Both the position numbers and the translations under genes were made by a program. Shown here piece by piece: positions 1 to 39,682 of a DNA stretch of 64,000 nucleotides. Below the pieces are notes generated by a model. The model worked only from the letters and a program-made list of their open reading frames with translations. It had not been told where the DNA came from and did not search any database. This stretch comes from a virus. Its lineage: Duplodnaviria; Heunggongvirae; Uroviricota; Caudoviricetes. Numbering within the stretch: position 1 is the stretch's first letter; each line of letters begins with the position of its first letter. The DNA lies in the IMG/VR virus record IMGVR_UViG_3300043395_001986, positions 173,308-237,307 of that record, one strand, 5' to 3'.

Positions 1-1176
1 GTTAAAATTTATGCAAGTAGTGGATATGGAACACCAGATACTTTAAGACAAGTTTTAAACGCAGAAAATCCAGATGCGGTATTACACTTTACTGACCCAA
101 GATATTGGATTTGGCTGTATGAAATTGAGCATGAAATCAGACAGCACACACCAATATTTTTCTATCATATTTGGGATGATTTACCAGACCCAAAATATAA
201 TCGTAATTATTACGAAAGTTGTGATTGGATTGGATGTATTTCTAAACAAACTTATGGTATTACGAAAAGAGTTTGGGGAAGTAATTCACAATCTCAATGG
301 AAACAACCAGAAGATTGGCAAGTGAGTTATGTACCACATGGTATTCGTTCAGATGTATATAAACCAGTAGATGTTCCTTCTGATTTTAAGAAACAAATAT
401 TAGGTGATAAAGAATATGATTTTATTGTTTATTGGACAAATAGAAATATTAGAAGAAAGCAACCAATTGAAGCGATTTTAGCATTTAATGAATTTGTTAA
501 ATCATTAAGTCCAGAACAACAAAAAAAGGTTGTTATGATAATGCACACACAACCTATTGACGATAATGGAACAGACCTCCCAGCTGTTGTTAGAGATTGT
601 TGTATAAGTGAATGTAATGTAATTTTTGATGATAGAAAAAGACCAGACGAAGAATTAAATCTATTGTATAATTTAGCAGATATTACACTTACACTTTCTT
701 CTAATGAGGGATTTGGATTGGGTACTGCCGAATCTATAATGGCGGGCACTCCTATAATTACGACAGTAACCGGTGGTTTACAAGACCAATGTGGATTTGA
801 AGTTGATGGAAAATATTTAACCGCTGATGATTATGTAAAGATTGGTTCTTTGCATGATAAAAAACAATATGATAAAGTAAAATATGGAGATTGGGTTAAA
901 CCAATTTGGCCAGTTCGTTCAGCAACCGGTTCTGTACCAACTCCATATATCTTTGATGATAGAATTGATTTTGATGATGTAACACCTCTTATTAAAAGTT
1001 GGTATGATATTGGAAGAGAGGCGAGAAAAGCAGCCGGCTTAAAGGGTAGAAAGTGGATGCTTGGCGATGGCGGATTGAGTGCAGAAAATATGTGTCAGAC
1101 ATTGGTAGATGGAATGGAAGGTGCATTTAAAAATTGGAAACCAAGAAAAAAATATGAATTGTTTAAAATAAAATAA
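1..1176 (+). CDS. Glycosyltransferase family 1/GT4-like (GT-B fold), 5'-truncated by window edge
   Basis: Frame 1 is open from base 1 to stop at 1176 (VKIYASSGYGTPDTLRQ... continuous into MSYVPHGIRS...); track ORF 322..1176 is only the part after the first Met. C-terminal GT-B signature EGFGLGTAESIMAGTPIITTVTGG (E-x7-E-like). Confidence 0.7.
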   Translation, partial: VKIYASSGYGTPDTLRQVLNAENPDAVLHFTDPRYWIWLYEIEHEIRQHTPIFFYHIWDDLPDPKYNRNYYESCDWIGCISKQTYGITKRVWGSNSQSQWKQPEDWQVSYVPHGIRSDVYKPVDVPSDFKKQILGDKEYDFIVYWTNRNIRRKQPIEAILAFNEFVKSLSPEQQKKVVMIMHTQPIDDNGTDLPAVVRDCCISECNVIFDDRKRPDEELNLLYNLADITLTLSSNEGFGLGTAESIMAGTPIITTVTGGLQDQCGFEVDGKYLTADDYVKIGSLHDKKQYDKVKYGDWVKPIWPVRSATGSVPTPYIFDDRIDFDDVTPLIKSWYDIGREARKAAGLKGRKWMLGDGGLSAENMCQTLVDGMEGAFKNWKPRKKYELFKIK

Positions 1177-1177
1177 A

Positions 1178-2455
1178 ATGGCAGAAATTCAAAAACCTTT
1201 ATTAGTATTTCAAGGACCTGTGGCAACGAGAAGTGGTTATGGTGACCACGCAAGAGATTTAGTTAGGTCTCTTATTGATATGAATAAATTTGACATAGTT
1301 GTAATATCTACTCGTTGGGGGTCAACTCCTATGACGGGACTACGAAACACAGAAGAAGATAGACAGATTTTAAATTTAATAGGAAAACAAGTTACTAGAA
1401 AACCAGACGTATACATTCAATTGACCGTAGCAAACGAATTTGAAGCAAAAGGAACATATAATATCGGTATTACAGCAGGTGTTGAAACAACCGCTGCACC
1501 AATTGAATTTATTCATGGTTGTAACAAAATGGATTTAATTATTGTACCTTCTCAATTTACAAAAGAAGTTTTACAAAAAACAGCTTATACAGAAAAAGAT
1601 AATCAAACAGGAAGAGTAATAGCAGAACATAGAATTGCAAAACCAATTGAAGTTCTTTTTGAAGGATTTAATGAAAAAACATTTGGAGCAGATGCCATTC
1701 CATATATTACCGAATTAGACCAAATAAAAGAAGATTTTGTATTTCTTTTTGCAGGTCATTGGTTGCAAGGTGGATTGGGACACGATAGAAAGGATGTGGG
1801 TATGTTAATAAAAACTTTTTGTCTAGCATTTGCAGGACAAAAGAATGCACCTGCATTAGTTTTAAAAACTTCATCAGCAGGATTTAGTGTATTGGATAGA
1901 GAATCAATGATTGCTAAAATAAAAACACTTACTGAACAATTTAAAATTTCCCCATCAATATATCTGTTACATGGTGAATTTACAGAGGAAGAAATGAATG
2001 GAGTTTATCACCACCCAAAAGTAAAAGCAATGGTTTCATTTACACATGGTGAAGGATTTGGTAGACCATTATTAGAATTCAGTTTGACGGGAAAGCCGGT
2101 GATTGCATCTAATTGGAGCGGTCATCTAGATTTCTTAAAAGATGGTGCAGTATTGTTAGATGGTAAGTTAGAAGATGTACATGAAAGTGCACAAAATCAG
2201 TTCCTAATTAAAGGAAGCAAATGGTTTTATGTAAATTACAATGAAGCTCTTAAGAAATTTAAAGATATTTATACTAACTATGATAAGTATAAAACACCTG
2301 CTTATCAATTAGGAAAACAAAATTTACAAAACTTTGGTTTAGAAAAGATGACAAAATTATTTGATACCATCTTAACAAACTATGTTCCACCGATAAAACA
2401 ATTTATACCATTAAATCTTCCAAATTTTGAAATAGTAGAAGACGATGCCGGATAA
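1178..2455 (+). CDS. Glycosyltransferase GT4-like (GT-B fold)
   Basis: C-terminal donor-binding motif FTHGEGFGRPLLEFSLTGKPVIASNWSGH typical of GT4/GT1 retaining glycosyltransferases; start 2 nt after previous stop. Confidence 0.72.
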   Translation: MAEIQKPLLVFQGPVATRSGYGDHARDLVRSLIDMNKFDIVVISTRWGSTPMTGLRNTEEDRQILNLIGKQVTRKPDVYIQLTVANEFEAKGTYNIGITAGVETTAAPIEFIHGCNKMDLIIVPSQFTKEVLQKTAYTEKDNQTGRVIAEHRIAKPIEVLFEGFNEKTFGADAIPYITELDQIKEDFVFLFAGHWLQGGLGHDRKDVGMLIKTFCLAFAGQKNAPALVLKTSSAGFSVLDRESMIAKIKTLTEQFKISPSIYLLHGEFTEEEMNGVYHHPKVKAMVSFTHGEGFGRPLLEFSLTGKPVIASNWSGHLDFLKDGAVLLDGKLEDVHESAQNQFLIKGSKWFYVNYNEALKKFKDIYTNYDKYKTPAYQLGKQNLQNFGLEKMTKLFDTILTNYVPPIKQFIPLNLPNFEIVEDDAG

Positions 2456-3029
2456 TTTACCATATTATAGACCTCTTTTTAAAAGAGAAGTATTAGTTCC
2501 ACCTATGAATGTTCAACCAGGGGGTTTTTATAGATTGTGGTCTTATACGACAGTAGAAGGAAAAAGTAAAAACTATGGTGGAACAAAAGCACCTATTTTA
2601 ATGGTAATTGGTACGGTCAAAAGTACCGGTTTAATACATGCAATAAGAGTAAGTGATTTACCAATTAATACTTTTATTAAATTCTTTAAACGAATTATGA
2701 ATAGAGAATTTATACAGGAGTCACTTAATATGGAATATCAAAACACATTCTTAAAGAGAAAGGATTTACATTATAGAAATAACGGAAATGCGTATGTGGT
2801 GGATGAGCCATTTGGTAGAAGTTTCTATCAAAGAATGATTGGTAGCAATAATCTTATCATGAATTACTATGAAACATATAGAACATATAAGATAAAAAAT
2901 ATAAAAAATATGAGAGAAGTGTATTTTGATTGGAAAAAATTTGTTAAAACACATCCACAATTGGGTAAATTTATAATACCAACAAAAACAACACCACCAC
3001 CTCCACCACCAAAAAAAGTAATAAAATAA
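2445..3029 (+). CDS. Hypothetical protein with C-terminal poly-Pro/Lys tail
   Basis: 194-aa ORF overlapping upstream stop by 11 nt; ends TTPPPPPPKKVIK; no recognisable catalytic motif. Confidence 0.4.
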   Translation: MPDNLPYYRPLFKREVLVPPMNVQPGGFYRLWSYTTVEGKSKNYGGTKAPILMVIGTVKSTGLIHAIRVSDLPINTFIKFFKRIMNREFIQESLNMEYQNTFLKRKDLHYRNNGNAYVVDEPFGRSFYQRMIGSNNLIMNYYETYRTYKIKNIKNMREVYFDWKKFVKTHPQLGKFIIPTKTTPPPPPPKKVIK

Positions 3030-3030
3030 T

Positions 3031-3654
3031 ATGAAATTAAGCTTTGCAGTTACGGTCTCAACGGAAATAAAAGAAATAGAAAATTTAATTAAGCTTTTAG
3101 CTAAAAGAACAAAAACTACTGAAATAGTTGTTCAATATGATAGTTCAAACACTACATTAGAAGTTATAGAATTTCTAAATAAAAGTTTAATTGAAAATAA
3201 AATAGATAAATTAGTATCATATCCTTTAAATGGTGATTTTGCTAATTTTAAAAATCATCTAAATGCAAATTGTAGTGGAGAATTTATTTATCAATTAGAT
3301 GCAGATGAATTGATTGATTCCAAATTTTTAAAAGCATTACCAAATGTATTGGATAACAATAAGGATATAGACCTTTTCTTTGTACCCAGAATCAATACAG
3401 TCAACGGATTAACAGAAGAACACATTCAAAAATGGGGATGGAATGTAAACGAAAAGGGTTGGGTAAACTTTCCGGATGTACAAACACGCATATACAAAAA
3501 CAAACAATCTATATTTTGGGCAGGTAAAGTTCACGAAAGAATACAGGGGTTTGAATCATATTCAGTATTACCAGCTGAAGAAATATATTGTATACAGCAT
3601 CATAAAGATATTAAAAGACAAGAAAAGCAAAACGCTTTATATGATACTATATGA
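3031..3654 (+). CDS. Putative glycosyltransferase family 2-like (GT-A fold)
   Basis: N-terminal beta-alpha-beta start (KLSFAVTVSTE), DxD-like YQLDADELID, aromatic-rich C-terminal half; sits among GT2 genes. Confidence 0.45.
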   Translation: MKLSFAVTVSTEIKEIENLIKLLAKRTKTTEIVVQYDSSNTTLEVIEFLNKSLIENKIDKLVSYPLNGDFANFKNHLNANCSGEFIYQLDADELIDSKFLKALPNVLDNNKDIDLFFVPRINTVNGLTEEHIQKWGWNVNEKGWVNFPDVQTRIYKNKQSIFWAGKVHERIQGFESYSVLPAEEIYCIQHHKDIKRQEKQNALYDTI

Positions 3655-4133
3655 ATTGGGTAATTTTTACAACAGAGTGTAGTGGTAAAACAACATTTGC
3701 TAAAAACAATAAATTCAATTTAAACGAATACCAAATTGTTGATTGGGATGTTATTAAGACAGTACCAGATATTAGATATGAAAATGAATTAATGTTTATT
3801 GATTTAATTGTAGAATTGCAAAAATCTGATAATAAAATATATCTAACAAATATAGTTCCACCTGATTTTATTTTTGGATGTAAAGATTATTTTAAAAATA
3901 TAAACTTTGCAATAATTCTTATAAAAGAAGAACAATTAATTAAAAATATTAAAAATAGGCATCATCCACAATATAATAGTCAATATATTATTGATAAATA
4001 CAATTCATTTAGAGTCAAAATTGGCATGAAAAATGAAAAAATAAAAGTATTTAACAATTTTGAAGAGTTTAAAAATTACTTATATCCACCAGCAAGTAAA
4101 TTAGAAATTAAACAAAGAATAATTAGGTTATGA
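3651..4133 (+). CDS. Hypothetical protein (degenerate P-loop-like N-terminus)
   Basis: 160 aa; TTECSGKTTFAKNN resembles a Walker-A-like loop but lacks the first Gly; ATGA overlap with neighbours. Confidence 0.35.
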   Translation: MNWVIFTTECSGKTTFAKNNKFNLNEYQIVDWDVIKTVPDIRYENELMFIDLIVELQKSDNKIYLTNIVPPDFIFGCKDYFKNINFAIILIKEEQLIKNIKNRHHPQYNSQYIIDKYNSFRVKIGMKNEKIKVFNNFEEFKNYLYPPASKLEIKQRIIRL

Positions 4134-4789
4134 AAGAAGTAACTGTCGTTTGTACAAGTTGTAATAGACCGGATTTATTAGAGAAAACACTAGAAAGTTT
4201 TTTTAAATATAACACATATGAATTAACTGCATTTCATATTATAGATGATAGTGCGGTTGTTGGTTGTAATGACCATTTAAAAGAAAAATTCCCATTAGTA
4301 AATTTTTGGTACAATCAAGTAAATTTAGGACAAGTTAATAGTATTGATAAAATATACGGATATGTAACCACTCCTTATGTATTTCATATGGAAGAAGATT
4401 GGGAATTTTACAAAGAAGGTTTTATAGAAGCGGCATTAGAAATTATTGATGTTGAAAAATGTATATGCGTAACTGTCAGAGATATAAATGATACTAAACA
4501 CCCAACAATACCACCAACATATCGAACTAAAAATGGAATACATTTTAGAAAATTAATGTGGGGGTTCGATGGTCATTGGCACGGATTTACATTCAATCCA
4601 TCTTTAAAGAAAATGAAAGATTATCCAGAAAATGGATATGCACCAATTGGTAGAGAATTAGATTTAAGTAAATATTATTATGAATTAGGTTATTTTGCAC
4701 TTACTTTCACCGAAGGATATTGTAGACATGCGGGTTGGGGTAGACATGTTACTGATAAAGGTGAAACGGCAGGATTTCAAACAAATTAA
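4130..4789 (+). CDS. Glycosyltransferase family 2
   Basis: MKEVTVVCTSCNRPDLLEKTLESFFKYN... classic GT2 N-terminus (VxxxTxNRxxxLxxxLxS); HIIDDSAV (DxD/DDS) motif. Confidence 0.6.
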   Translation: MKEVTVVCTSCNRPDLLEKTLESFFKYNTYELTAFHIIDDSAVVGCNDHLKEKFPLVNFWYNQVNLGQVNSIDKIYGYVTTPYVFHMEEDWEFYKEGFIEAALEIIDVEKCICVTVRDINDTKHPTIPPTYRTKNGIHFRKLMWGFDGHWHGFTFNPSLKKMKDYPENGYAPIGRELDLSKYYYELGYFALTFTEGYCRHAGWGRHVTDKGETAGFQTN

Positions 4790-4792
4790 AAT

Positions 4793-5995
4793 ATGAAAAT
4801 AAGTTTTTGTATACCGTCAAAAAACAATTTAAGATACCTTAAACATGCAATACACTATATTCAAAAAAATATAGGAGAAATTGATTATGAAATATTGGTA
4901 TGGATTGATAAAAATGAAGATGGAACTTACGAATGGCTAGAATCGGTTAGACCAAAAAATGTAAGATGGTGGTTAAACCCAAAACAAAATCCATTTGGTA
5001 TAGGTAACGCATATGATTTTTTAGTAGAAAATGCAGATAGTGAACTTATTATGATTTATCATGCTGATATGATAATGGGTAAGCATTGTATACAATATTT
5101 GTTAGAATATGTAAAAAAAGGAGTAGTAGTATCTGCAACAAGAGTTGAACCACCACTACACCCACCCTCAGCGGATAAAATAACATTAGATTTTGGATTA
5201 TGGCCAGAAGCGGATATAGAAGATGGATTTAGAGAGGAAGATTTTGAAGAATTTTGCGTAAGTAATACATTTAATAATTTTGAAACAACAAATGGTATAT
5301 TTGCACCATGGTTAATGTATAAAAGTGATTATATAGGACATGACCCTGCATTAAATTCATTGGCAGAAGATATGGATATATTTTTACGAATGAAATTAAA
5401 AGGATATGAATTTATACAACCAAGAGTTGCATTAGTATATCATTTAACATGCAGAGGTGGACAATTTGAACACGCTGTAAATACCGAAGATTTAAGAACT
5501 CGTAGTAGAGAATGGGAATGGCTAAGTATAAATAAAACAAGAGAATTTATTCGTAAATGGAAACATACACCTTTATTAGACAAAGTTGGCCATCCAATAG
5601 AAATACCAAGATACCAAATGGGAGTAAAGGTAATAAACACAAATACGGATTGGTTGTGGTTGTTTGATTTATATTTTGATAAGGTTTATTTAGAAAATCA
5701 ATCAATGAATGTAAAATTAGCAACCGATAGATATTTGAATTTTGAATCGCAAAATACAGCAACAAATTTATATACAAAATTTAGCAACACAGAGCAATCG
5801 GTAAAAGATTGCGATATTTACATTGAAATAGATTGTAATATCTTAAACACACAATCTCATCCACAATTTTTTGCAGAATTACCTTTCCATATTAAGAAAT
5901 ATGGAATTGAAGGCAAAAAAATGAAAGCGCTGGATATTCTATTTAAATTTAACAAATTAACTGAAAGACAAAAGGAGTATATTTATATAAAGTAA
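4793..5995 (+). CDS. Glycosyltransferase family 2 with ~200-aa C-terminal extension
   Basis: MKISFCIPSKNNLRYLKHAIHYIQKN (GT2 start), LVWIDKNEDGT, MIYHADMIM; long C-terminal domain of unknown function. Confidence 0.6.
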   Translation: MKISFCIPSKNNLRYLKHAIHYIQKNIGEIDYEILVWIDKNEDGTYEWLESVRPKNVRWWLNPKQNPFGIGNAYDFLVENADSELIMIYHADMIMGKHCIQYLLEYVKKGVVVSATRVEPPLHPPSADKITLDFGLWPEADIEDGFREEDFEEFCVSNTFNNFETTNGIFAPWLMYKSDYIGHDPALNSLAEDMDIFLRMKLKGYEFIQPRVALVYHLTCRGGQFEHAVNTEDLRTRSREWEWLSINKTREFIRKWKHTPLLDKVGHPIEIPRYQMGVKVINTNTDWLWLFDLYFDKVYLENQSMNVKLATDRYLNFESQNTATNLYTKFSNTEQSVKDCDIYIEIDCNILNTQSHPQFFAELPFHIKKYGIEGKKMKALDILFKFNKLTERQKEYIYIK

Positions 5996-6006: not shown

Positions 6007-6624
6007 ATGGTGGATTACATAATGAACGAACTTCCTATACTAACAGATAGGGTTAACAAAACAATTAAAAGATATGATTGTGATGAATCCTATAAAGTTG
6101 AATATAAATTTAATGATTTTGGATATAGGTCATCCACAAATTATAGAGATTTATTAAAACAACGAAAAATAGTTTGCTTAGGATGTTCTTTTACAGAGGG
6201 GGTTGGTTTAGATGAAGATGAAACATGGCCATATCTATTATCACAAAAAATAGGATTGCCATTTTTTAATTTAGGAATGGTATGTGGCTCTCAAGGTTAT
6301 ATAATGTGGCAAATACAAAATGTATTAGATAAAATACAAACAGATAATATATTTGTATTAAAACCACCACCTGGTAGAATATTTGAATTAAGAGATGATT
6401 CATTTGATAATATACAATCTTGGAATTATGAAAAACCAGGAAAATCATATGGTAGATTGTATAAATTAAATGATTTTATGTTAGATTCTGTGTGTAATAC
6501 ACATAGAATTAGTTATTTGAGTTCAACCGATTATGGCAATAAGTGGGAAAAGGCAAAGGATGGACATCATTATGGAAAAGACTATCAAGAAATGATAGCA
6601 AATGAATTTTATAAAAATATGTAA
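6007..6624 (+). CDS. SGNH/GDSL-family hydrolase-like protein (paralog 1 of 7)
   Basis: Block I LGCSFTEGVGL (catalytic Ser in GCS), block II NLGMVCGSQG, block V DGHHYGKDYQEMIANEF (DGxH...); homologous to 8573, 9347, 10098, 25649, 54458, 55204 ORFs. Confidence 0.6.
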   Translation: MVDYIMNELPILTDRVNKTIKRYDCDESYKVEYKFNDFGYRSSTNYRDLLKQRKIVCLGCSFTEGVGLDEDETWPYLLSQKIGLPFFNLGMVCGSQGYIMWQIQNVLDKIQTDNIFVLKPPPGRIFELRDDSFDNIQSWNYEKPGKSYGRLYKLNDFMLDSVCNTHRISYLSSTDYGNKWEKAKDGHHYGKDYQEMIANEFYKNM

Positions 6625-6635
6625 ATTTATATAAT

Positions 6636-7040
6636 ATGCCAGCAGTAAGTAAAGCACAGCAAAGATTTTTCGGAATGGTGCATGCAGCACAAAAAGGAGA
6701 AAAACCAGCAAGTAAAGATGTAGCAGATGTAGCTAAAGATATTTCTAAAAAAGATGCCAAAGATTTTGCATCAACTTCACATGAAGGGTTACCAACACAT
6801 GTAAAGAAAGAATTTGCATATCCTACAAATAAAGAATTATGGAAAGAATGTATGGATAGTTTGGGTAAAGGAGCAACGGCAGTTAAGCAATATGAATTAA
6901 AAGGTGGTGGATGGAGACTGGGAGAAGCAGCGGATGAAAGAGTATATAATAAAATAACCGAATTATATGCTAATGAAATCAAACCAATAAAAGAAGCAAA
7001 GGCAAAAATCAGAGAATCGTTAAGAAAAAGAAATAAATAA
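6636..7040 (+). CDS. Conserved phage/bacterial protein of unknown function (SKAQQRFFGMVH N-terminal motif, DUF3008-like)
   Basis: N-terminus MPAVSKAQQRFFGMVHAAQKG matches a widespread uncharacterised family motif (recalled, not searched); basic C-terminus. Confidence 0.45.
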   Translation: MPAVSKAQQRFFGMVHAAQKGEKPASKDVADVAKDISKKDAKDFASTSHEGLPTHVKKEFAYPTNKELWKECMDSLGKGATAVKQYELKGGGWRLGEAADERVYNKITELYANEIKPIKEAKAKIRESLRKRNK

Positions 7041-7042
7041 AA

Positions 7043-7336
7043 ATGACACGAAAACAACTAAAAGAATTTGTTAGAAAATCTTTAATAGAAAGTGGAGTAA
7101 TAAAAGAACGATACACTTTGAAAGAAGAAGGTGGTGACCACGAAGTTGGTATGGCCATAAATTTATTAGATGATATTATAATGAATGCACAATCTTTAAA
7201 AGGTAAAATTGGAACATCCGAAAAAAATTTAGCTGGATGGATACAAGACCATATTTCTCAATCACAAAACTTCATCAGTCAGGCTAATACTGGATATCAC
7301 GAAATTGATGATAAGGAGGAAAATGAAAATGGATAA
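7043..7336 (+). CDS. Hypothetical protein
   Basis: 97-aa ORF, starts 3 nt after previous stop; acidic C-terminus. Confidence 0.4.
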   Translation: MTRKQLKEFVRKSLIESGVIKERYTLKEEGGDHEVGMAINLLDDIIMNAQSLKGKIGTSEKNLAGWIQDHISQSQNFISQANTGYHEIDDKEENENG

Positions 7337-7643
7337 TTTATACACAGTCTTAATATCAGTTGTATCAGTATTAGGTTCGGCAGCAGCTTTCCGCTTCTAT
7401 GAGAAGAAATCAATGAGAAAGGAAAGAGATGACGATTTTATTAGACATGATTGTAAAGATAGAATTGCAAAATTAGAAGCATTATTAAGCCAATCATCAA
7501 AAGAGAAAGATGAACTTCGTAATATGATTTTATCATTGACAAAAGAAGTTGCAGCATTGACCGTAAAAGTTGAATTCCTTACAAAAGAAAACGAAGAACT
7601 TCATAAAAAGTCAAAACCAGCAAAACAATTATTAAAAGGATAA
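7323..7643 (+). CDS. Hypothetical membrane-anchored coiled-coil protein
   Basis: N-terminal TM helix (LYTVLISVVSVLGSAAAF) then coiled-coil-like KLEALLSQSSKEKDELRNMILSLTKEVAALTVKVEFL; AGGAGG at 7314-7319 sits 9 nt upstream of the second in-frame ATG (7329), which may be the true start. Confidence 0.4.
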   Translation: MKMDNLYTVLISVVSVLGSAAAFRFYEKKSMRKERDDDFIRHDCKDRIAKLEALLSQSSKEKDELRNMILSLTKEVAALTVKVEFLTKENEELHKKSKPAKQLLKG

Positions 7644-7652
7644 TTTGTAAAA

Positions 7653-8576
7653 GTGAGTAAAAGAGTTTTAAATGAATTTTTTGGATTAACACCTCAAATA
7701 AAAAATACAAATTGGAATGGTGTTAATATTGAATTGGGTAAAGTTTATTCCAATCCATTCGCTCGTTCATTTAAACCAATAAAAGAAGCAACGAAAGAAG
7801 AAATAAAAAAGAAAAAATTAAGAATATTTGATTTTGATGATACATTAGTAAAAACAAAATCATTTATATATGTTAAACATAAAAACGGAGAAAAATCAAA
7901 ATTATCACCTGGAGAATATGCGGTATATGATAAAAAAGAAGGAGATGAATTTGATTACTCTGATTTTGAAAAGGTAAATGAACCAGAAGAAATTAAAAAA
8001 TACACAAATCTTTTAAGAAAATTTATCGAATCAACCGGTAAAAGAAATGTTGCAATACTAACTGCTAGAGGTGCATACCAACCTGTTAGAGAATACTTAA
8101 AGGATATTGGTATGGGTGATGTATATGTTGCAGCATTGGGTGATAGTGACCCACAAAAGAAAGCAGATTGGATTGAAGATAAAATCAAAAAACATAAATT
8201 TAATGACATCTATTTTGTAGATGATTCTCATAAAAACGTAAAAGCGGTTGGTGAATTAAAAACCAAATATCCAGATGTTACTTTTAAAATTCAACACGTT
8301 AAACACAACGGAAAGTATTGGGCAGATAGAAAAGAAGATAGTAAAGATACAGGTGATTCAAATCAGATAGCAGCAACAGAAAAACCAAAATCAATATCAA
8401 CACCTGATTGGGAAACATTTAAAAATAAATCTACAAAAGAAAAGAAAGATATTTTAGATAAAACAATTAAAAATACTGAAACTGGTAGAAATATTAAATT
8501 AAGAACTGCTCTTAATTATGATGATAAAAAAGCTGTTTATAAAGCAGCTGTTCGTTACTTAAAAACACAAAAATGA
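7653..8576 (+). CDS. HAD-superfamily phosphatase-like protein
   Basis: HAD motif I RIFDFDDTLV (DxDxT), motif II ILTARG, motif IV YFVDDSHKNV; only possible in-frame start after upstream stop is GTG at 7653. Confidence 0.5.
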   Translation: MSKRVLNEFFGLTPQIKNTNWNGVNIELGKVYSNPFARSFKPIKEATKEEIKKKKLRIFDFDDTLVKTKSFIYVKHKNGEKSKLSPGEYAVYDKKEGDEFDYSDFEKVNEPEEIKKYTNLLRKFIESTGKRNVAILTARGAYQPVREYLKDIGMGDVYVAALGDSDPQKKADWIEDKIKKHKFNDIYFVDDSHKNVKAVGELKTKYPDVTFKIQHVKHNGKYWADRKEDSKDTGDSNQIAATEKPKSISTPDWETFKNKSTKEKKDILDKTIKNTETGRNIKLRTALNYDDKKAVYKAAVRYLKTQK

Positions 8577-9343
8577 ACTCATTAAGGTTTTGGAAAAAAA
8601 GTGGTTTTGATGTTGGTACATATGATTGGAAGTTAGAAAATAGAAGAAATAAAACAACTAATATTTCAGGTTCCGATAATTCACAAACAAATACATACAC
8701 TTATAACGAATTAGGATTTAGAGGAGATTCCATTTATAAAAATGGATTTCGTATAATGTCCGTTGGTTGTTCACATACGGAAGGAGTTGGTGTGAATGAT
8801 GACCAATCTTGGCCTCATTACTTTTCACAATTAGTAAATAATGGTGTTGATTTAAACGCAGGGTTTGGTGGAAGAAGTAATGATTACATAGCAAGATGTA
8901 TTATTACAATGGTAGACACATTTAGACCACAATTGGTTAATATAATGTATACCTACCCATCTCGTAAAGAATATTATAGATACAATGGTGATTTGGAGCC
9001 ATTTCATATGAATCCATGGGGATATTTTGCGGATGATATTGAGGGGAAAGAAGAATATAAAGCAATAGCAAGAATTACTCATGATGAAAACGATTTAATA
9101 AATTGGTATAAAAATCATTTATTAATAACAAATTTTCTAAAAGCAAGAAACATAGCATATACTTGGAATGGTTGCTTTTTAATGGATGAAGTAGTTACCG
9201 ATGCAAATAGATTTGATGGTGATTACGGAAATTTCAGAGAATTTTCAATAGATGGTAAACACGCAACAGCAGAACATAATCAAAAATACGCACAAAAATT
9301 ATATAATTTTATTTTGAAAAATGAAATCATTGAGTTACCTTAA
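8573..9343 (+). CDS. SGNH/GDSL-family hydrolase-like protein (paralog 2)
   Basis: Block I SVGCSHTEGVGV, block II GFGGRSNDYI, block V DGKHATAEHNQKYAQKL; ATGA overlap with upstream gene. Confidence 0.6.
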   Translation: MNSLRFWKKSGFDVGTYDWKLENRRNKTTNISGSDNSQTNTYTYNELGFRGDSIYKNGFRIMSVGCSHTEGVGVNDDQSWPHYFSQLVNNGVDLNAGFGGRSNDYIARCIITMVDTFRPQLVNIMYTYPSRKEYYRYNGDLEPFHMNPWGYFADDIEGKEEYKAIARITHDENDLINWYKNHLLITNFLKARNIAYTWNGCFLMDEVVTDANRFDGDYGNFREFSIDGKHATAEHNQKYAQKLYNFILKNEIIELP

Positions 9344-9346
9344 CAT

Positions 9347-10114
9347 ATGAATTGTTTTGTAAAAATATTTGGATGTTCACATTCTGCTGACGGCCCCTTT
9401 CGCAATACAGATAAATTGATATCTTTTTTTAAATCAAATGGATATGAAAATGTATATGTAAAAAATATAGCACATTCTGGAAATGCAAACGATAAAATAA
9501 TAAATGATGTTTATGAAAATGCAGAAATGGAATTGGGAGAAAATATATTTTACATAATACAATATTCTTATTTAAATAGATTGTGGTTACCAAATGATAT
9601 GAATATGATTTTTCATAGTTTTTTATTAGATGAAAAAACAGGTGAATGGCCACCATATATACCAATTGAAAAACGAAAATATTTAAAAAGTATGTATGAG
9701 TCGTTTGTAACTTGTTTTTATAGCGATAAATTGTATTTTGATGATTTGATTAAAAAGATTACATTTTTAAAAACATATTTAGATAGTAAAAATATTAAAT
9801 TTATACATTTTTTATGGGAAGCAGTATCTAGTGAAGAAGAAATGGTAGAATCGAGAAACGAGTTTCATAAATTGTATTTAACGGATAAAATAAAAACAGG
9901 CGAAATAGATAAACGATATTTCAATAAATTAAAAAATTTAGAATTAATAGAATTTGAAAAAAATATATTTAATTTTAGTAAAATATCATTTGATAAAAAA
10001 ATAACAAATTGGCATACATTTGGTGGCGGTAATTTTGATTTGCATTTAACAAATGAAGGAAATGATTTTTTAAGTGAAATTCTATTAAATAAGTTATATG
10101 AAAAAATACAATAA
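9347..10114 (+). CDS. SGNH/GDSL-family hydrolase-like protein (paralog 3, divergent)
   Basis: Block I IFGCSHSADGP, block II NIAHSGNANDKI, block V DLHLTNEGNDFLSEIL. Confidence 0.5.
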   Translation: MNCFVKIFGCSHSADGPFRNTDKLISFFKSNGYENVYVKNIAHSGNANDKIINDVYENAEMELGENIFYIIQYSYLNRLWLPNDMNMIFHSFLLDEKTGEWPPYIPIEKRKYLKSMYESFVTCFYSDKLYFDDLIKKITFLKTYLDSKNIKFIHFLWEAVSSEEEMVESRNEFHKLYLTDKIKTGEIDKRYFNKLKNLELIEFEKNIFNFSKISFDKKITNWHTFGGGNFDLHLTNEGNDFLSEILLNKLYEKIQ

Positions 10115-10943
10115 ATTATATAGCAATGGTTGCTCTTATATGTGGGGACACGGACATAACAATGTTAATATTTTCCATATGTTTGAAGAAACGAAAAATA
10201 TAGATATATCTGAAAAAATGATATATGAAAAAAATTCGTTTTTTAATAATTACGATTGGGTTAGAAAAAAGTTTCAATATCCGAAATTAGTTGCTGACCA
10301 TTTTGGATTAGAATTAATAGATGAATCAATATATGGTGGTAGTTTTGAAAGAGTATATAGAAAAACAATGCAATATATTCTTAAAACAAAAGATATATCT
10401 GATACTATATTTTTATTAGAATGGCCAAACGGAAGTAGAAGTGAATTTTGGTCGAATACAAGTAATAGATTCATCAATCTAACAGCAATGCGAGATAATT
10501 TCGATAATGTTGATTTTGATGATTTTGGGCAAGCAGGTAATTGGTATTATAGATTCTATGACCCAAATATATTTCAAATAAATGAAATTTTTATGGGTTT
10601 AACTTTAAAAAATTATATAGAATCATTGGGTGGTATTGCTGTTTTCTGTTTATGTGATAATTTAGAATTTTGTTTTAAACACGACACAAAAAATGTTGTT
10701 AGTAAGTATTTGAATGAAGATGATTTACGTGAAAAATTAGAAAAAGAAATATATCCAAATTGTGTTTTGTTTGAAAAGGGAATGAATAAAAATTATAATT
10801 TAATATATTACTACTTACATTTAGAAAAAGCAGCATTCAAATACGATACAAATGGGCTATTCAAAGATGAACATAATTCTTTCAGAGGATCGAGACTTAT
10901 TGCAGAGAATATAATAAAACACATAGAAAATGTTACAAATTAA
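10098..10943 (+). CDS. SGNH/GDSL-family hydrolase-like protein (paralog 4, divergent)
   Basis: Block I YSNGCSYMWGHGH, block II ESIYGGSFERV, block V DEHNSFRGSRLIAENI. Confidence 0.5.
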   Translation: MKKYNKLYSNGCSYMWGHGHNNVNIFHMFEETKNIDISEKMIYEKNSFFNNYDWVRKKFQYPKLVADHFGLELIDESIYGGSFERVYRKTMQYILKTKDISDTIFLLEWPNGSRSEFWSNTSNRFINLTAMRDNFDNVDFDDFGQAGNWYYRFYDPNIFQINEIFMGLTLKNYIESLGGIAVFCLCDNLEFCFKHDTKNVVSKYLNEDDLREKLEKEIYPNCVLFEKGMNKNYNLIYYYLHLEKAAFKYDTNGLFKDEHNSFRGSRLIAENIIKHIENVTN

Positions 10944-11931
10944 AATAATACAACCAGATAGATTAGAAAGATTTAATGTTAATTCTGATTTACATAAATT
11001 ATTACCATTCAAAGCAAGAGGTGATGAAAATAATATTATATTTGAAAATTCTAATGATGCTGATATAAACATAGTAAGTTCTTTTCATTTAAAACAATTA
11101 TATAAAAATGAACAATTTTCTGAAATAGAAAATATAGGTAAAAAAATATTAATAATTGATAATATACATGAACATTTGGATATAACCGATTTGGAAAATA
11201 TATCAAAATATTTAGAAAAAAAACCAATAGTTTTTACTGCAAACATTTTATTATACAATTCGGATTTATGTTATACACCATCAAAAGAATTTGCAATATA
11301 TCAATTTTATGATGTTTTACATAGAACTGATTTTATAGAAAATAGGAAGTATGATGTAGTTTCATTTAACAACGCAGTAAGACCATATAGGGATTCATTA
11401 GTAAATAAACTTCTTGAAAAAAAGAAAGAATTTGATGTTATCACATATCTTTTATCAGATATAGCTGGTGTTAAAGAATTTAATAAAAAGTTTAAATGGA
11501 AACATGATGCATATATTGATGTTCAATTTACAATCGCCAACTCATATCTAAATGTATATTCGGAATCTATGTTTTCTCAAAAGCACACCGGAAATCAAAG
11601 TGTAAAAGTAACAGAAAAAACATATTGGAATTTAGTAACGGGTACACCTTTTTTATCTTTTGAGTATAATAATGATAAATTAGATTTTTTAAAAAGTTTT
11701 GGGTTCTATACATTTGATGATTTGAATTTATTTCCAAATGAAGATTTTGATTACAATAAGACCGTAGAGTTCTTAAACACTAAAATTGATTACATATATA
11801 ATATGGATTTAATTGAATATTTTAACAACAATATAGTATTTTGTAAAAATAATAATGTTTTATCTAGAAATATTTTAGAAAATTATAATTTTAAAGAAGA
11901 TTTTACAAAATTATTAGATTCAAATTTTTGA
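10930..11931 (+). CDS. Unknown paralog family 'X' member 1 (putative glycan-processing enzyme)
   Basis: C-terminal region FSQKHTGNQSVKVTEKTYWNLVTGTPFLSFEY...LDFLKSFGFYTFDDLNLFPNEDFDYNKTVEFL aligns with FSEKTIKGLFSPRPFILHSYPFSLKKLRKLGFKTFDFLFDEEYDNIVDHEQRL of 36261 ORF and the equivalent in 37418 ORF. Confidence 0.5.
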   Translation: MLQIKIIQPDRLERFNVNSDLHKLLPFKARGDENNIIFENSNDADINIVSSFHLKQLYKNEQFSEIENIGKKILIIDNIHEHLDITDLENISKYLEKKPIVFTANILLYNSDLCYTPSKEFAIYQFYDVLHRTDFIENRKYDVVSFNNAVRPYRDSLVNKLLEKKKEFDVITYLLSDIAGVKEFNKKFKWKHDAYIDVQFTIANSYLNVYSESMFSQKHTGNQSVKVTEKTYWNLVTGTPFLSFEYNNDKLDFLKSFGFYTFDDLNLFPNEDFDYNKTVEFLNTKIDYIYNMDLIEYFNNNIVFCKNNNVLSRNILENYNFKEDFTKLLDSNF

Positions 11932-34092: not shown

Positions 34093-34108
34093 TCAAAAAT
34101 AAAATAAT

Positions 34109-35842: not shown

Positions 35843-36268
35843 ATGGGATATAATCCGTATAGATGGTGGACAAGAGGAACAAAGCAAAGAAATAGACCTC
35901 TACCATATCACTACCCACTTGCACAAAGAATAGGTAACGGAGATTATGACCTACATCCTTTGATGGAAGAATGGATTAGTGAAAAGGAAAAATATAAAGT
36001 AGATGTTCAGAAATGTTGGGATGAGTATAAGGGTGATACTAATGCGGGTAGATGGGAATATATGAGAGATAGAACAAGAATGCAAAATTTAAGAGTTCTA
36101 AAATTAGCAGAAGAGTCACATAAAAAAGAAACAGAATTACTATTTAAATTAAGAGAAGAATTAAAGAAAGCATTTAAGATAGACCTTTGGGATGAAGCCG
36201 TAGAAAATTGTGACGGTGATATAAAAGAGTTCTACGAATATTATGCAGTAAGAAGAAACAATGGATAA
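35843..36268 (+). CDS. Hypothetical protein
   Basis: 141-aa ORF. Confidence 0.4.
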   Translation: MGYNPYRWWTRGTKQRNRPLPYHYPLAQRIGNGDYDLHPLMEEWISEKEKYKVDVQKCWDEYKGDTNAGRWEYMRDRTRMQNLRVLKLAEESHKKETELLFKLREELKKAFKIDLWDEAVENCDGDIKEFYEYYAVRRNNG

Positions 36269-37427
36269 AGTAAAATTTTTTTTAGATGATGCAGGTACGA
36301 TTATAGATTTTAATCTGCTTGATATGCAAAAGCAAGATTTAAGTTGGCAAAATCGTAGAGGTTTATTTGATTTGGTTCTAAATGAAAAATTAGAAGCAGA
36401 TACACCTAAACATTTTTATATATTTTCACGTGCGTTTGATGATTTTGTTGATTATTTTTTAGAAAGTATTTACTTTAAAGTAACATTAGAAAAATTACAA
36501 AAAGGAGAAATAGGTAAAATTGTTTTCTTTTGTGAAGATATGGATTGGTTTTCACATTTACAACCAAAATTAGACGATACTTTACATAAATTAAAAAACG
36601 CATTAGGCGATTACATAGATGTTGTAGAATTATATCTACCATCCTACTCGGAATTTGAGTATGAACCAGTTAAAAGATTTCATTCATTTGGATTTCTTAC
36701 TTTTAGATTGGGTTATTATCTCAAATTCCGATTTTTTAATGTCAATTTTTCGAAAATTGAAAAACACTTTTTCTCTGCAAACAATTATCCGAGAGCAAGT
36801 AGAATGCATTTTTACAAATATCTAAACGATAATGAATTATTTGATTATGGTAATTTTTCTTTCTTTAATTTTGCTAATATTCCGTTAGATGAAAATGGTC
36901 AATTCACATATGACCAAAGAGAAGATGATGGTGGATTAAGAAAGATACCATCTGATTATAAATTTGGTGCAATGAAATTCTATAATGAGAGAGAAGATAA
37001 TTATGTCAATCATGAAATTATCAAAGGATTGAATTTAGATATTATTGAAAAATCAGCCATCGAAATTATTTTTGAAACTGCATACTGCAAGGATGACTTT
37101 GTTCAGTTTAGTGAAAAAACAATTAAAGGTTTATTTTCACCACGTCCTTTTATACTACATTCATATCCATTTTCTTTAAAGAAGCTTAGAAAATTAGGAT
37201 TTAAAACATTCGATTTTCTATTTGATGAAGAATATGATAATATAGTTGACCATGAACAAAGATTGTATTATATATTTCATATGGTAAAACAAATTTCATA
37301 TTTGGATATAAACGAAATAAAAGCAACTTTGGAAAAAAACAAAGATGTATTTTTACACAATAGAGATGTATTAAATACTTTTTATAAAAATGAAGTTGAT
37401 ATAATTAGAAAAGCATTATGCTCGTAA
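36261..37427 (+). CDS. Unknown paralog family 'X' member 2
   Basis: FSEKTIKGLFSPRPFILHSYPFSLKKLRKLGFKTFDFLFDEEYDNIVDHEQRLYYIF; tandem with member 3; paralog of 10930 ORF. Confidence 0.5.
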   Translation: MDKVKFFLDDAGTIIDFNLLDMQKQDLSWQNRRGLFDLVLNEKLEADTPKHFYIFSRAFDDFVDYFLESIYFKVTLEKLQKGEIGKIVFFCEDMDWFSHLQPKLDDTLHKLKNALGDYIDVVELYLPSYSEFEYEPVKRFHSFGFLTFRLGYYLKFRFFNVNFSKIEKHFFSANNYPRASRMHFYKYLNDNELFDYGNFSFFNFANIPLDENGQFTYDQREDDGGLRKIPSDYKFGAMKFYNEREDNYVNHEIIKGLNLDIIEKSAIEIIFETAYCKDDFVQFSEKTIKGLFSPRPFILHSYPFSLKKLRKLGFKTFDFLFDEEYDNIVDHEQRLYYIFHMVKQISYLDINEIKATLEKNKDVFLHNRDVLNTFYKNEVDIIRKALCS

Positions 37428-38554
37428 ATTTTTTAGAAGTTAAAGATACAGAATTTGAAGTTTGTAATGTAAATGTAAACTTTGAAGAATACACCTATAA
37501 TAATAGAGTTGGATTTTTCAAATGGGTACAATCATTTTGTCAGCCTATTTCATTTTTAGCAAGTAATGCAAATGTATGTGTATTGATATATTCAATATCA
37601 TCTGACAAAGCATTGGAAAGTATAAATAAAAACTTTCACCTATTAAACAAATACAAAAAGATAATCATATTTCAGGAGGAACAAGATTTCATATGTTGTT
37701 CGTTGGAAAGATTTAATGCATTGAGAGATGAATTGCATTCTAAATTAAATGAGTTTGAAATAGAAGCTGTTTATTTTGATTTTAAATACAAATCTCAATA
37801 CGATTTGGGATTAAAAAGATACTACCATTTTGGTACTATAAATTATCTATTTGAATTAAATTTCAATTATATAGACAAGTACGATTATAACAGAGAGAAA
37901 ACAAAATACTTTTATAGTGGAAATGCGGCAGAAAGAGCACCTAGATTTCACCTACAAAAATATCTAACAGATAATAATCTTTTACATAATAATCAAGTTT
38001 CATTTTTTATTTATAGTGACAAAAATATCATTGAATATAATGAAAGTGTTGAAGGGTATGGTGAGTTTGATAAAATAAAAGATTTTACTTTTAAGAAAAT
38101 TGAATTTGAAACAACAAGTAATCTATCCGAATATACTCGTCTTTTGGAATTTAATGCATCACCAGATGCTTTAGCGGAAATTTCAATTGAAACGCTATCT
38201 AAATCGTATGGTGATTATGTTATTCAATTTTCAGAAAAAAGTTTCAAACCATTTTTCTATAAAAGACCATTTATGTTATTTGGATATAAAAATAATATAG
38301 AATGTTTGAAAGAATTGGGATATAAAACATTTGATTTTATATTTGATGAGTCGTATTCCGAAATAGATGAACAGCAACAACGATTAAATTCTATATTTAA
38401 AAACATAGGAAACTTTTGTGAAAAACCAATTGAAGAAAATTTAGAACTAATAAATAAACATTCAGATATTTATAACTATAATTTAGATAATTTAAAAAAT
38501 TTTATAGTTACAAATAAAGAAAACTTGCGTTATGAAATTATTAGTTATAGGTGA
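37418..38554 (+). CDS. Unknown paralog family 'X' member 3
   Basis: FSEKSFKPFFYKRPFMLFGYKNNIECLKELGYKTFDFIFDESYSEIDEQQQRLNSIF; near-collinear with member 2. Confidence 0.5.
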   Translation: MLVNFLEVKDTEFEVCNVNVNFEEYTYNNRVGFFKWVQSFCQPISFLASNANVCVLIYSISSDKALESINKNFHLLNKYKKIIIFQEEQDFICCSLERFNALRDELHSKLNEFEIEAVYFDFKYKSQYDLGLKRYYHFGTINYLFELNFNYIDKYDYNREKTKYFYSGNAAERAPRFHLQKYLTDNNLLHNNQVSFFIYSDKNIIEYNESVEGYGEFDKIKDFTFKKIEFETTSNLSEYTRLLEFNASPDALAEISIETLSKSYGDYVIQFSEKSFKPFFYKRPFMLFGYKNNIECLKELGYKTFDFIFDESYSEIDEQQQRLNSIFKNIGNFCEKPIEENLELINKHSDIYNYNLDNLKNFIVTNKENLRYEIISYR

Positions 38555-39263: not shown

Positions 39264-39682
39264 CAAAGGTATGGGTAAACGGAACATTTGATATTGTCCA
39301 TTTGGGACATATACAAATGCTAAAAAAAGCAGCAGATTTAGGTGATTTTTTAATAGTTGGAGTTGATAGTGATAAAAGAGTTAGTGAATTAAAAGGAGAA
39401 GATAGACCTATTAATAAATTGATAAGTAGAATTACATTATTAGAAGCAATCAAATATGTTGATAGAGTTGTATCATTTGACTCGGATGAACAATTAGAAA
39501 CTTTGATTAAAACAATGAGACCTACAATAATGGTAATAGGAGAAGAATATAGGGATAAAAGAATTATAGGAAAAGAGTATGTAGGTGAAATTGTATATTT
39601 TCCTAAAATGGAAGGGTTTAGTTCAACAAACATTATAAATAAGTTATATGACAGAGAGAAAGTATCTACCAACATTAAGTGA
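39260..39682 (+). CDS. Cytidylyltransferase-fold nucleotidyltransferase, RfaE/HldE domain-II-like (heptose-1-phosphate adenylyltransferase-like)
   Basis: VWVNGTFDIVHLGHIQMLKKAADLGDFLIVGVDSDKRVSELKGEDRPINKLISRITLLEAIKYVDRVVSFDSD and FSSTNIINKL match HldE domain II; ATGA overlap with kinase gene (start moved from track 39218 to ATG 39260). Confidence 0.78.
   Translation: MTKVWVNGTFDIVHLGHIQMLKKAADLGDFLIVGVDSDKRVSELKGEDRPINKLISRITLLEAIKYVDRVVSFDSDEQLETLIKTMRPTIMVIGEEYRDKRIIGKEYVGEIVYFPKMEGFSSTNIINKLYDREKVSTNIK

What the first reader, a model, noticed from the sequence alone, without database searches (positions are those of the whole stretch)
10930..11931. Three-member paralog family of unknown function co-localised with glycan genes (family 'X')
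ORFs 10930-11931, 36261-37427 and 37418-38554 share a conserved C-terminal block. In member 2 it reads FSEK-[TS]-x-K-x-[LF]F...RPF-[IM]L...[LC]-[KR]-[KE]-LG-[FY]-KTFDF-[LI]-FDE-[ES]-Y...[HQ]-[EQ]-QRL, with a matching segment in member 1. One copy sits at the end of the GT/SGNH island. Two tandem copies sit immediately upstream of the heptose kinase/nucleotidyltransferase pair. I could not assign them to any known GT or sugar-modifying family from motifs alone. The context suggests a new glycosyl- or phosphosugar-transferase family, possibly heptosyltransferase-like.
Basis: seen in the sequence. Interest (0 to 1): 0.68.

Follow-up and report, generated by a model that had tools for sequence, protein, structure and literature searches.

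The report
Large unannotated viral GT-B glycosyltransferase family
The three similar genes are real relatives and belong to a very large, unnamed protein family found mainly in uncultured aquatic viruses; it is predicted to have the fold of sugar-transferring enzymes and sits among sugar-modifying genes, so it is probably a new glycosyltransferase family rather than a new kind of system.

Summary
ORFs 10930-11931 (m1), 36261-37427 (m2) and 37418-38554 (m3) are homologous. m2 and m3 share 30% identity (E 2e-26). m1 is a divergent member (profile-profile probability 98.5%, E 3e-15 over 230 columns).

They are not a private three-gene family. An exhaustive profile search found 12,106 cluster representatives (8,631 at E<=1e-10). 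None matches Pfam, NCBIfam or PHROGs, no PDB sequence matches, and tblastn finds nothing in 50,697 GenBank phage records. IMG/VR holds at least 582 relatives, usually 2-5 copies per locus or fused in tandem.

The conserved residues are N..R, E, [ST]-E-K and P-F in the C-terminal domain, plus a 99% conserved acidic residue in the N-terminal domain. This fits a nucleotide-sugar donor site with a variable acceptor domain.

Elsewhere the neighbours are aminotransferase, amidinotransferase-like, radical SAM, carbamoyltransferase and SGNH-like genes. The link to heptose rests on local context only. In the sister lineage the nucleotidyltransferase is replaced by an SGNH-like gene. Donor and acceptor remain unknown.

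The parts
10930..11931 (+). m1: divergent member of the family (333 aa). It keeps N147, R151/R154, E212, E229-K230, P240-F241, G258, T261-F262 and the N-domain acid E81. It lacks the DESYD motif.
36261..37427 (+). m2: family member (388 aa) with the full conserved core: D93, N174, R181, E272, S284-E285-K286, P296-F297, G313, T316-F317, D322-E323, Y325-D326, R334, N367.
37418..38554 (+). m3: tandem paralogue of m2 (378 aa). Its start overlaps the m2 stop by 10 nt. The core residues are kept, except that the last D of DESYD is S.
   Evidence: The pair is conserved in relatives.
38532..39263 (+). PfkB-family sugar kinase (243 aa). Its start overlaps the m3 stop by 23 nt. It is the conserved downstream partner of the m2/m3 pair. 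Best hit is heptose-7-phosphate kinase (rfaE domain I), below the curated cut-off.
   Evidence: Pfam PfkB 1.8e-16. NCBIfam TIGR02198 1.3e-35, 123 bits against a cut-off of 345. Intact in 8 sister-lineage contigs.
39260..39682 (+). Cytidylyltransferase-like nucleotidyltransferase. The public gene call is 140 aa from ATG 39260, overlapping the kinase stop by 4 nt; the first in-frame ATG is at 39218. Best hit is heptose-1-phosphate adenylyltransferase (rfaE domain II), below the cut-off. It is not conserved: the sister lineage has an SGNH-like gene here instead.
   Evidence: Replacement shown.
35843..36268 (+). 141-aa ORF of unknown function. Its stop overlaps the m2 start by 8 nt. It is conserved directly upstream of the pair in all relatives.
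39648..40052 (+). 134-aa ORF of unknown function, conserved downstream of the module in relatives.
322..5995 (+). Conventional glycosyltransferase island upstream of m1: two GT1/GT4-type and three GT2-type genes, plus two ORFs without a match. It is syntenic in a 118.8-kb relative contig.
6007..10943 (+). Stretch between the GT island and m1. It holds SGNH-like paralogues (6007-6624, 8573-9343, 10098-10943; 9347-10114 by motif only), a HAD-like gene (7653-8576), and two small ORFs (6636-7040, DUF3008; 7305-7643, coiled-coil-like) not known to belong to the module. The last SGNH-like gene overlaps the m1 start by 14 nt.

Best explanation
m1, m2 and m3 are cytoplasmic enzymes of a very large, so far unnamed, mainly virus-borne protein family with the two-domain GT-B glycosyltransferase fold.

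Proposed mechanism (inferred): the conserved C-terminal Rossmann-like domain binds a nucleotide-activated sugar. It does so through an Asn/Arg pair at the first strand-helix turn, a Glu at the end of a central strand, and a [Ser/Thr]-Glu-Lys at the start of the next helix. This layout resembles the donor site of GT10 fucosyltransferases and the E..E region of GT4 enzymes. The poorly conserved N-terminal domain binds the acceptor. It carries one almost invariant acidic residue after a beta-strand (m2 D93, m1 E81), a candidate catalytic base. Each paralogue would add one sugar to a growing glycan, which would explain why copies occur as tandem arrays or fused two-domain proteins.

In this phage, m1 ends an island of five ordinary glycosyltransferases and SGNH-like genes. 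m2 and m3 form an overlapping gene string with a PfkB sugar kinase and, in this lineage, a nucleotidyltransferase. These two may supply an NDP-heptose-like donor.

Shown: homology, family size, fold prediction, residue conservation, gene context. Inferred: catalysis, donor, acceptor.
For: - Homology among the three.
- Family size: 12,106 representatives at E<=1e-3 and 8,631 at E<=1e-10.
- BFVD: after 19 uncharacterised uncultured-phage proteins come viral GT10, GT47, CgeB-like and GT1 proteins.
- Conservation sits in the C-terminal half. Mean top-residue frequency is 0.40 there against 0.23 in the N-terminal half. E272, E285, P296, G313, F317, E323, Y325 and N367 are invariant. N174, R181 and K286 are near-invariant. 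One N-domain column is 99% acidic.
- In the m1 model these residues lie at strand ends and helix starts.
- The best hhalign register against H. pylori FucT puts S-E-K on T248-E249-K250. E249 and K250 are reported as GDP-fucose contacts (PMC11468063).
- Copy number: 43 of 64 distinct viral loci hold 2-5 copies within 16 kb. 34 of 149 representatives have two family domains.
- One representative is fused to a UDP-glucose/GDP-mannose dehydrogenase.
- Neighbours across viruses are DegT aminotransferase, amidinotransferase-like, radical SAM, carbamoyltransferase, UDP-glucose dehydrogenase and SGNH-like genes.
- A distant homologue lies in a dTDP-sugar/epimerase/GT7 cluster.
- Local context.
Against: - There is no biochemical evidence.
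- No sequence-level link to any known GT family was found: Pfam, NCBIfam and PDB all negative.
- The alignment to the GT10 motif is not significant (probability 2.2%, E 0.021).
- The m2 model is only moderately confident (pLDDT 66).
- The GT-B-like fold also occurs in enzymes that are not Leloir glycosyltransferases.
- The heptose link is weak. The kinase and nucleotidyltransferase score below the curated cut-offs. The nucleotidyltransferase is replaced by an SGNH-like gene in the sister lineage. No HldE-like kinase neighbour occurs in the 64 other viral loci.
Confidence: 0.65

Rival explanations
1. The enzymes are DNA glycosyltransferases. m2/m3, and perhaps m1, would add a sugar such as heptose to a hydroxymethylated base of the phage genome to evade host nucleases. 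The donor would come from the adjacent kinase and nucleotidyltransferase.
For: - A phage cluster of kinase-like enzyme, cytidylyltransferase and GT-B glycosyltransferase was shown to put one or two heptoses on 5hmC (bioRxiv 10.1101/2023.12.21.572611).
Against: - No cytosine methyltransferase, TET/JBP-type oxygenase or thymidylate-synthase-like hydroxymethylase was seen among the roughly 50 window ORFs scanned, including all neighbours of both islands.
- The T4 enzymes do not score better than many non-DNA GT-B enzymes.
- Family neighbours elsewhere are amino-sugar-type modifying enzymes, not base-modifying enzymes.
- Only 64 kb of a genome of about 237 kb was available, so absence is not proven.
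Confidence: 0.12
2. The family has a GT-B-like fold but transfers something other than a sugar from a nucleotide sugar. Candidates are a sugar phosphate or glycerol phosphate (TagF- or Stealth-like) or a pyruvyl group (WcaK/CsaB-like).
For: - The nucleotidyltransferase also resembles glycerol-3-phosphate cytidylyltransferase (78.6 bits in NCBIfam; PDB 1coz E 4.5e-17).
- Two BFVD hits are named WcaK-like pyruvyl transferase.
- GT-B-like folds are used by such enzymes (established knowledge).
Against: - No Pfam hit to Glyphos_transf, Stealth or PS_pyruv_trans.
- The two WcaK-named BFVD hits are 806- and 1018-aa proteins matched over only about 18% of their length (TM-score by target length 0.18-0.19), so the matched part need not be the pyruvyltransferase domain.
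- rfaE domain II scores higher than TagD (125 vs 79 bits).
Confidence: 0.1
3. One or more of the copies are catalytically dead and act as scaffolds or chaperones for an active paralogue, in the way known for some paired GT-B proteins.
For: - The tandem arrangement and frequent fusion of two copies.
- m1 lacks the DESYD motif, and m3 has DESYS.
Against: All three keep the Asn/Arg, Glu, [ST]-E-K, P-F and N-domain acidic positions that are invariant or nearly so across the family.
Confidence: 0.08

Closest known systems
GT10 alpha-1,3/4-fucosyltransferases (H. pylori FucT 2NZW/5ZOI, human FUT9, plant FUT11/FUT13)
   Same: - A Glu at the end of a strand, followed after a loop by an aromatic-x-[ST]-E-K that starts the next helix, then a hydrophobic strand.
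- The best hhalign register places S-E-K on T-E-K (E249, K250), the GDP-fucose contacts.
- Acidic residue in the N-terminal domain.
   Different: - No significant sequence similarity (probability 2.2%; no Pfam Glyco_transf_10 hit).
- The spacing between the two Glu is 13 residues in m2 and most members and 17 in m1, against 10 in FucT.
- The family has its own extra invariant motifs (G-x-K-T-F, D-E-S-Y-D, R, N) that I do not know from GT10 (from memory, not tested).
- No fucose-pathway genes lie nearby.
GT4-type retaining glycosyltransferases (phage HY126 GT 9IQZ, PimA/PimB, WaaG, WlaC)
   Different: - No Pfam Glycos_transf_1 match, although the window's own GT4 genes are detected easily.
- The E-x7-E spacing is not kept.
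GT47 exostosins and GT90 POGLUT1/2
   Different: Eukaryotic secretory-pathway enzymes. No sequence match.
GT9 LPS heptosyltransferases (WaaC/WaaF)
   Same: GT-B enzymes that use ADP-heptose. This is the donor suggested by the rfaE-like kinase and nucleotidyltransferase next to m2/m3.
Phage DNA glucosyltransferases (T4 AGT, T4 BGT) and the heptose-adding DNA GT-B enzymes of Pyle et al.
   Different: No base-hydroxymethylating enzymes were found nearby. They do not score better than other GT-B classes.

Membership tests
GT-B fold glycosyltransferase superfamily | Two Rossmann-like alpha/beta domains with an interdomain cleft | tested here: met
   [not shown]
GT-B fold glycosyltransferase superfamily | Conserved donor-binding residues in the C-terminal domain and a variable acceptor-binding N-terminal domain | tested here: met
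   Invariant and near-invariant residues lie at m2 positions 174-367. Mean conservation is 0.40 in the C-terminal half against 0.23 in the N-terminal half. Their role in binding is inferred, not shown.
GT-B fold glycosyltransferase superfamily | Transfer of a sugar from an activated donor | not testable with these tools
   Needs enzyme assays.
GT10 fucosyltransferases | Significant sequence match to the family (Pfam Glyco_transf_10 or PDB members) | tested here: not met
   No Pfam hit for the three proteins or for 95 family members, even at E<=10. No PDB sequence hit.
GT10 fucosyltransferases | Donor motif F-E-N-S...Y-x-T-E-K (Y246, E249, K250 in H. pylori FucT) | tested here: inconclusive
   The family has E...F-[ST]-E-K with a longer spacer. 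The best hhalign register superposes S-E-K on T-E-K, but probability is 2.2% and E 0.021.
GT9 heptosyltransferases | Sequence or closest-structure match to WaaC/WaaF-type enzymes | tested here: not met
   [not shown]
GT4 (Glycos_transf_1) | Pfam Glycos_transf_1 match with the E-x7-E motif | tested here: not met
   No Pfam match. The E-to-E spacing is 13-17 residues.
TagF-like / Stealth / pyruvyl transferases | Sequence or closest-structure match | tested here: not met
   [not shown]
HldE-type ADP-heptose synthesis (the neighbouring kinase and nucleotidyltransferase) | Score above the NCBIfam equivalog cut-offs for rfaE domains I and II | tested here: not met
   These are the best hits, but at 123 bits against a cut-off of 345, and 125 bits against 181.5. 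The pair works like HldE at most by analogy.
Phage DNA-hypermodifying glycosyltransferases | Genomic association with enzymes that make 5hmC or 5hmU (C5-methyltransferase plus TET-like oxygenase, or a thymidylate-synthase homologue) | tested here: inconclusive
   None among the window ORFs scanned. Many small ORFs and about 170 kb of the genome were not examined.

The most novel reading that the evidence does not exclude
The family may be the signature enzyme of a widespread glycosylation system found mainly in uncultured aquatic viruses. This system would travel with amidinotransferase-like, DegT, radical SAM, carbamoyltransferase and SGNH-like genes. It would decorate a non-classical acceptor, either virion proteins or the phage's own DNA, with unusual amino-, amidino- or heptose-type sugars. 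The three copies in this jumbo phage would be a heptose-linked offshoot. If so, the family would be both a new CAZy family and the handle on an unstudied viral glycome.
Probability: 0.2. Interest if true: 0.8.

Novelty: new variant of a known kind. Interest (0 to 1): 0.55.

Why it matters
A family with more than 12,000 clusters at 50% identity has no model in Pfam, NCBIfam or PHROGs, no solved relative, and no tblastn match in about 50,000 GenBank phage records. That is a large gap in virus annotation.

If it is a glycosyltransferase family, it would add a new family to the GT-B class. It would also mark gene clusters in which aquatic viruses appear to build complex, modified glycans. Which molecule these viruses glycosylate (virion, host envelope or DNA) bears on host recognition, immune evasion and resistance to restriction.

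The three copies in this window give a compact starting point: two conserved gene strings and clear residues to mutate.

Tried and rejected
- Single-sequence and word-indexed searches were nearly blind to the family: 5, 11 and 9 hits. Only the exhaustive profile search showed its size.
- tblastn against GenBank phages found nothing with m2, with a typical member, or with the 63-aa consensus. Megablast also found nothing.
- Pfam at E<=10 on 95 members gave only scattered noise, e.g. Ferritin in 9 members. NCBIfam and PHROGs were empty.
- PDB profile searches gave only chance hits.
- The AFDB Foldseek library was not available.
- The 95-sequence alignment was too diverse for locus finding, so a 63-aa core alignment was used instead. 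The genome and viral scans then used different peptide patterns, so their counts (6 vs at least 582) are not directly comparable.
- Close relatives of m3 were not found in IMG/VR, and only one relative of m1 was found.
- The promoter/terminator scan of 34000-41000 was uninformative: promoter-like sites at chance level and no terminator-like site.
- I considered and rejected membership of GT10, GT9 and GT4 (see the membership tests).
- I considered heptose a family-wide donor and rejected it. HldE-like neighbours are absent elsewhere, and the nucleotidyltransferase is not conserved even in the sister lineage.

Full report
**The observation**

The three ORFs are present as described, all on the + strand: m1 10930-11931 (333 aa), m2 36261-37427 (388 aa) and m3 37418-38554 (378 aa).

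m2 and m3 are clear paralogues, with 30% identity over 321 residues and E 2e-26. m1 is much more distant: pairwise E 1e-3 and 4e-5 over 52-124 residues. I therefore tested it with profiles.

- The m1 family alignment (8 sequences) against the m2/m3 family alignment (6 sequences) gives hhalign probability 94.7%, E 6e-8.
- Against a 95-sequence family alignment it gives probability 98.5%, E 3e-15 over 230 columns. This spans m1 69-311 and m2 82-370, so it covers both halves of the protein and not only the C-terminal block.
- A six-frame HMM scan finds no fourth copy in the window.

**The family is very large and unannotated**

None of the three proteins matches Pfam or PHROGs. The profiles match no PDB sequence.

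Word-indexed searches returned only a handful of relatives. An exhaustive HMMER search of 1.84 billion cluster representatives with the 6-sequence profile found 12,106 proteins at E<=1e-3, 8,631 at E<=1e-10 and 565 at E<=1e-30.

Ninety-five single-domain members were scanned one by one. They show no recurrent Pfam or NCBIfam family, even at E<=10.

tblastn found nothing in 50,697 GenBank phage records with m2, with a typical member, or with the core consensus.

A scan of one genome per GTDB species found six, all in metagenome-assembled genomes. The two scans used different peptide patterns, so the counts are not directly comparable. The two long MAG contigs carry the same gene module as the viral contigs.

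The best BFVD structural matches of m1 are 19 'uncharacterized protein [uncultured Caudovirales phage]' entries.

The family is therefore common in uncultured, mostly aquatic viruses and effectively unnamed.

**Anatomy**

Across the 95 members these positions are conserved (m2 numbering):

- Invariant: E272, E285, P296, G313, F317, E323, Y325, N367.
- At least 90% conserved: N174, R181, S200, K286, F297, L306, T316, D322, D326, R334, and an acidic residue (D in 86 of 95; E in m2) at position 243.

All lie in the C-terminal half. Mean top-residue frequency is 0.40 there against 0.23 in the N-terminal half.

The N-terminal half has one striking column: m2 D93 is acidic in 99% of members. It follows a beta-strand and corresponds to m1 E81 in the profile alignment.

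m1 and its close relatives keep the N/R pair, both Glu, the Lys, P-F and G..T-F. They lack the D-E-S-Y-D motif.

**Fold**

The AlphaFold2 model of m1 (19-sequence alignment) has pLDDT 84.5 and pTM 0.83.

No heptosyltransferase, TagF-type, Stealth or pyruvyltransferase structure appears in either top 60.

In the m1 model the conserved residues sit at the usual ligand-binding points of Rossmann-like domains:

- N147 at the end of a strand, and R151/R154 at the start of the next helix.
- E212 at a strand end.
- E229-K230 at a helix start.
- P240-F241 at the start of the next strand.

**Comparison with the GT10 donor motif**

The pattern E...[ST]-E-K recalled the GT10 motif F-E-N-S...Y-x-T-E-K. 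In H. pylori FucT, Y246, E249 and K250 contact GDP-fucose (PMC11468063).

I verified residues 233-346 of 2NZW and aligned them to the family profile. The best register does place S-E-K on T-E-K and the following P-F-I-L strand on I-P-I-Y. However, the alignment is not significant: probability 2.2%, E 0.021. The m1 profile gives nothing.

The resemblance is therefore mechanistic and by analogy. It is not evidence of GT10 membership.

**Context in other viruses**

In 64 distinct IMG/VR loci of 16 kb, the family occurs once in 21 loci, twice in 33, and three to five times in 10, often as adjacent genes. Thirty-four of 149 representatives contain two family domains in one protein.

Other members are fused to a roughly 165-aa domain that also occurs as a free-standing neighbour gene. 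One member is fused to a UDP-glucose/GDP-mannose dehydrogenase.

Recurrent neighbours are:

- an amidinotransferase-like protein, in 48 of 64 loci;
- a DegT-type sugar aminotransferase (34);
- B12-binding radical SAM (27) and SPASM radical SAM (27) enzymes;
- a carbamoyltransferase (21);
- UDP-glucose dehydrogenase (14);
- SGNH-like proteins.

A distant homologue lies among dTDP-sugar isomerase, epimerase/dehydratase and GT7 genes. A cultured cyanophage, S-SCSM2R, has a similar island but without this family.

This is the context expected for enzymes that assemble a modified glycan. It is not a heptose-specific context. No HldE-like kinase neighbour was found in these loci, and only one nucleotidyltransferase-like neighbour was found.

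**Context in this window**

m1 ends a string of two GT1/GT4-type and three GT2-type genes, a HAD-like gene and several SGNH-like genes. The same order is kept in a 118.8-kb relative contig.

m2 and m3 lie in a string of overlapping genes: ORF141, m2, m3, PfkB kinase, nucleotidyltransferase, ORF134.

The kinase and nucleotidyltransferase have rfaE domains I and II as best NCBIfam hits (E 1e-35 and 2e-36). Both score well below the equivalog cut-offs, and the nucleotidyltransferase also resembles glycerol-3-phosphate cytidylyltransferase.

In eight contigs of the sister lineage (m2 70% identical), ORF141, m2, m3, the kinase and ORF133/134 are kept. The nucleotidyltransferase is replaced by a 212-aa SGNH-like protein with a G-C-S-F-T-E-G motif. 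In one low-coverage contig the kinase is frameshifted.

The kinase is thus the conserved partner of the pair. An NDP-heptose supply dedicated to m2/m3 is possible in this lineage but not general.

**Explanation and rivals**

Most likely (about 0.65), these are GT-B glycosyltransferases of a new sequence family. The proposed mechanism is:

- a nucleotide-sugar donor held by the conserved C-terminal residues;
- an acceptor bound by the variable N-terminal domain;
- a conserved N-domain carboxylate as the likely base;
- paralogues acting in sequence on one glycan.

The acceptor is unknown. Candidates are virion proteins, a lipid-linked or host-envelope glycan, or DNA.

The DNA-glycosylation rival draws on a published kinase-cytidylyltransferase-GT-B heptosylation module and on the T4 enzymes among the structural hits. 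However, no base-hydroxymethylating enzyme was seen among the ORFs scanned.

A non-sugar transferase with a GT-B-like fold, or catalytically dead partner copies, are less likely for the reasons given in the rival entries.

**Novelty and verdict**

The fold and the general role belong to a known kind. The sequence family, its size, its near-absence from cultured phages and its association with an unusual set of sugar-modifying genes are not described in any library I could query. CAZy membership could not be tested here.

I rate it a new variant of a known kind, with moderate interest. The window probably comes from a marine or freshwater jumbo phage: a protein of the m3 cluster (at least 90% identical) lies on a 237-kb contig, and GC content is 30%. 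It may belong to the aquatic lineages predicted to infect Bacteroidota; this is a lead only and was not tested.

Noticed in passing
window 6007-6624, 8573-9343, 10098-10943, 25649-26545, 54407-55204, 55204-55839 (and 9347-10114 by motif only): A second multi-copy family without a Pfam hit above the curated cut-off, with an N-terminal G-C-S-[HFY] motif (SGNH/GDSL-like; weak Lipase_GDSL_2 hit for 55204-55839). HMMs built from neighbour-gene clusters of the GT-B family in unrelated viral loci hit at least six window ORFs. The two families therefore co-occur across viruses.
   Followed up: partly
L101 6487-7125, L003 8708-9373 (equivalent to window 39260-39682): In the sister lineage the nucleotidyltransferase downstream of the kinase is replaced, at the same position, by a 212-221-aa SGNH-like protein. 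In L003 the kinase is also split by a frameshift; the contig has about 3.5x coverage, so this may be an assembly error.
   Followed up: partly
P0022, P0047, P0005, P0026 (about 590-600 aa), P0061 (648 aa), and 34 of 149 representatives: Domain fusions of the family. Some have an N-terminal domain of about 165 aa that also exists as a free-standing neighbour gene in 30 of 64 loci. One is fused to a UDP-glucose/GDP-mannose dehydrogenase. About a quarter are tandem two-domain proteins.
   Followed up: partly
L011 (Pseudobdellovibrionaceae MAG, 171-kb contig) and L015 (Haliscomenobacter MAG, 183-kb contig): The only long 'cellular' contigs with the family carry the same module as the viral contigs: DegT, family member and amidinotransferase-like in L011; three SPASM radical SAM genes and an SGNH-like gene in L015. 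They may be large phage contigs binned into MAGs, or transferred islands.
   Followed up: no
window 12607-14271 and 14275-16932: Directly after m1 come a 554-aa protein with a signal-peptide-like N-terminus (by eye; Bacteroidota-like, MKKLSLLVAALFVTILSFGQ) and an 885-aa protein with LCCL and C-type-lectin-like domains. These may be carbohydrate-binding structural or adhesin proteins, and a hint at a Bacteroidota host.
   Followed up: no
window 39175-39675, minus strand: A 166-aa antisense ORF is longer than the nucleotidyltransferase gene it overlaps. A longest-ORF rule picks it instead of the real gene, as my own ORF filter did.
   Followed up: yes
window 28617-30731: A 704-aa protein without a Pfam match is 35% identical to a region of a 484-kb uncultured megaphage (LR756508) and 29% identical to Microcystis phage Mel-JY01. 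These are the only GenBank phage matches seen for this window.
   Followed up: no
viral loci L017-L094; Synechococcus phage S-SCSM2R 222576-244186 (L095): An amidinotransferase-like protein without a Pfam match ends in G-G-G-F-H-C-V-T. It is the commonest neighbour of the family (48 of 64 loci) and is 60% identical to a cyanophage gene annotated as inosamine amidinotransferase. That cyanophage island holds GTs, radical SAM and 2OG oxygenases but no member of this family.
   Followed up: partly
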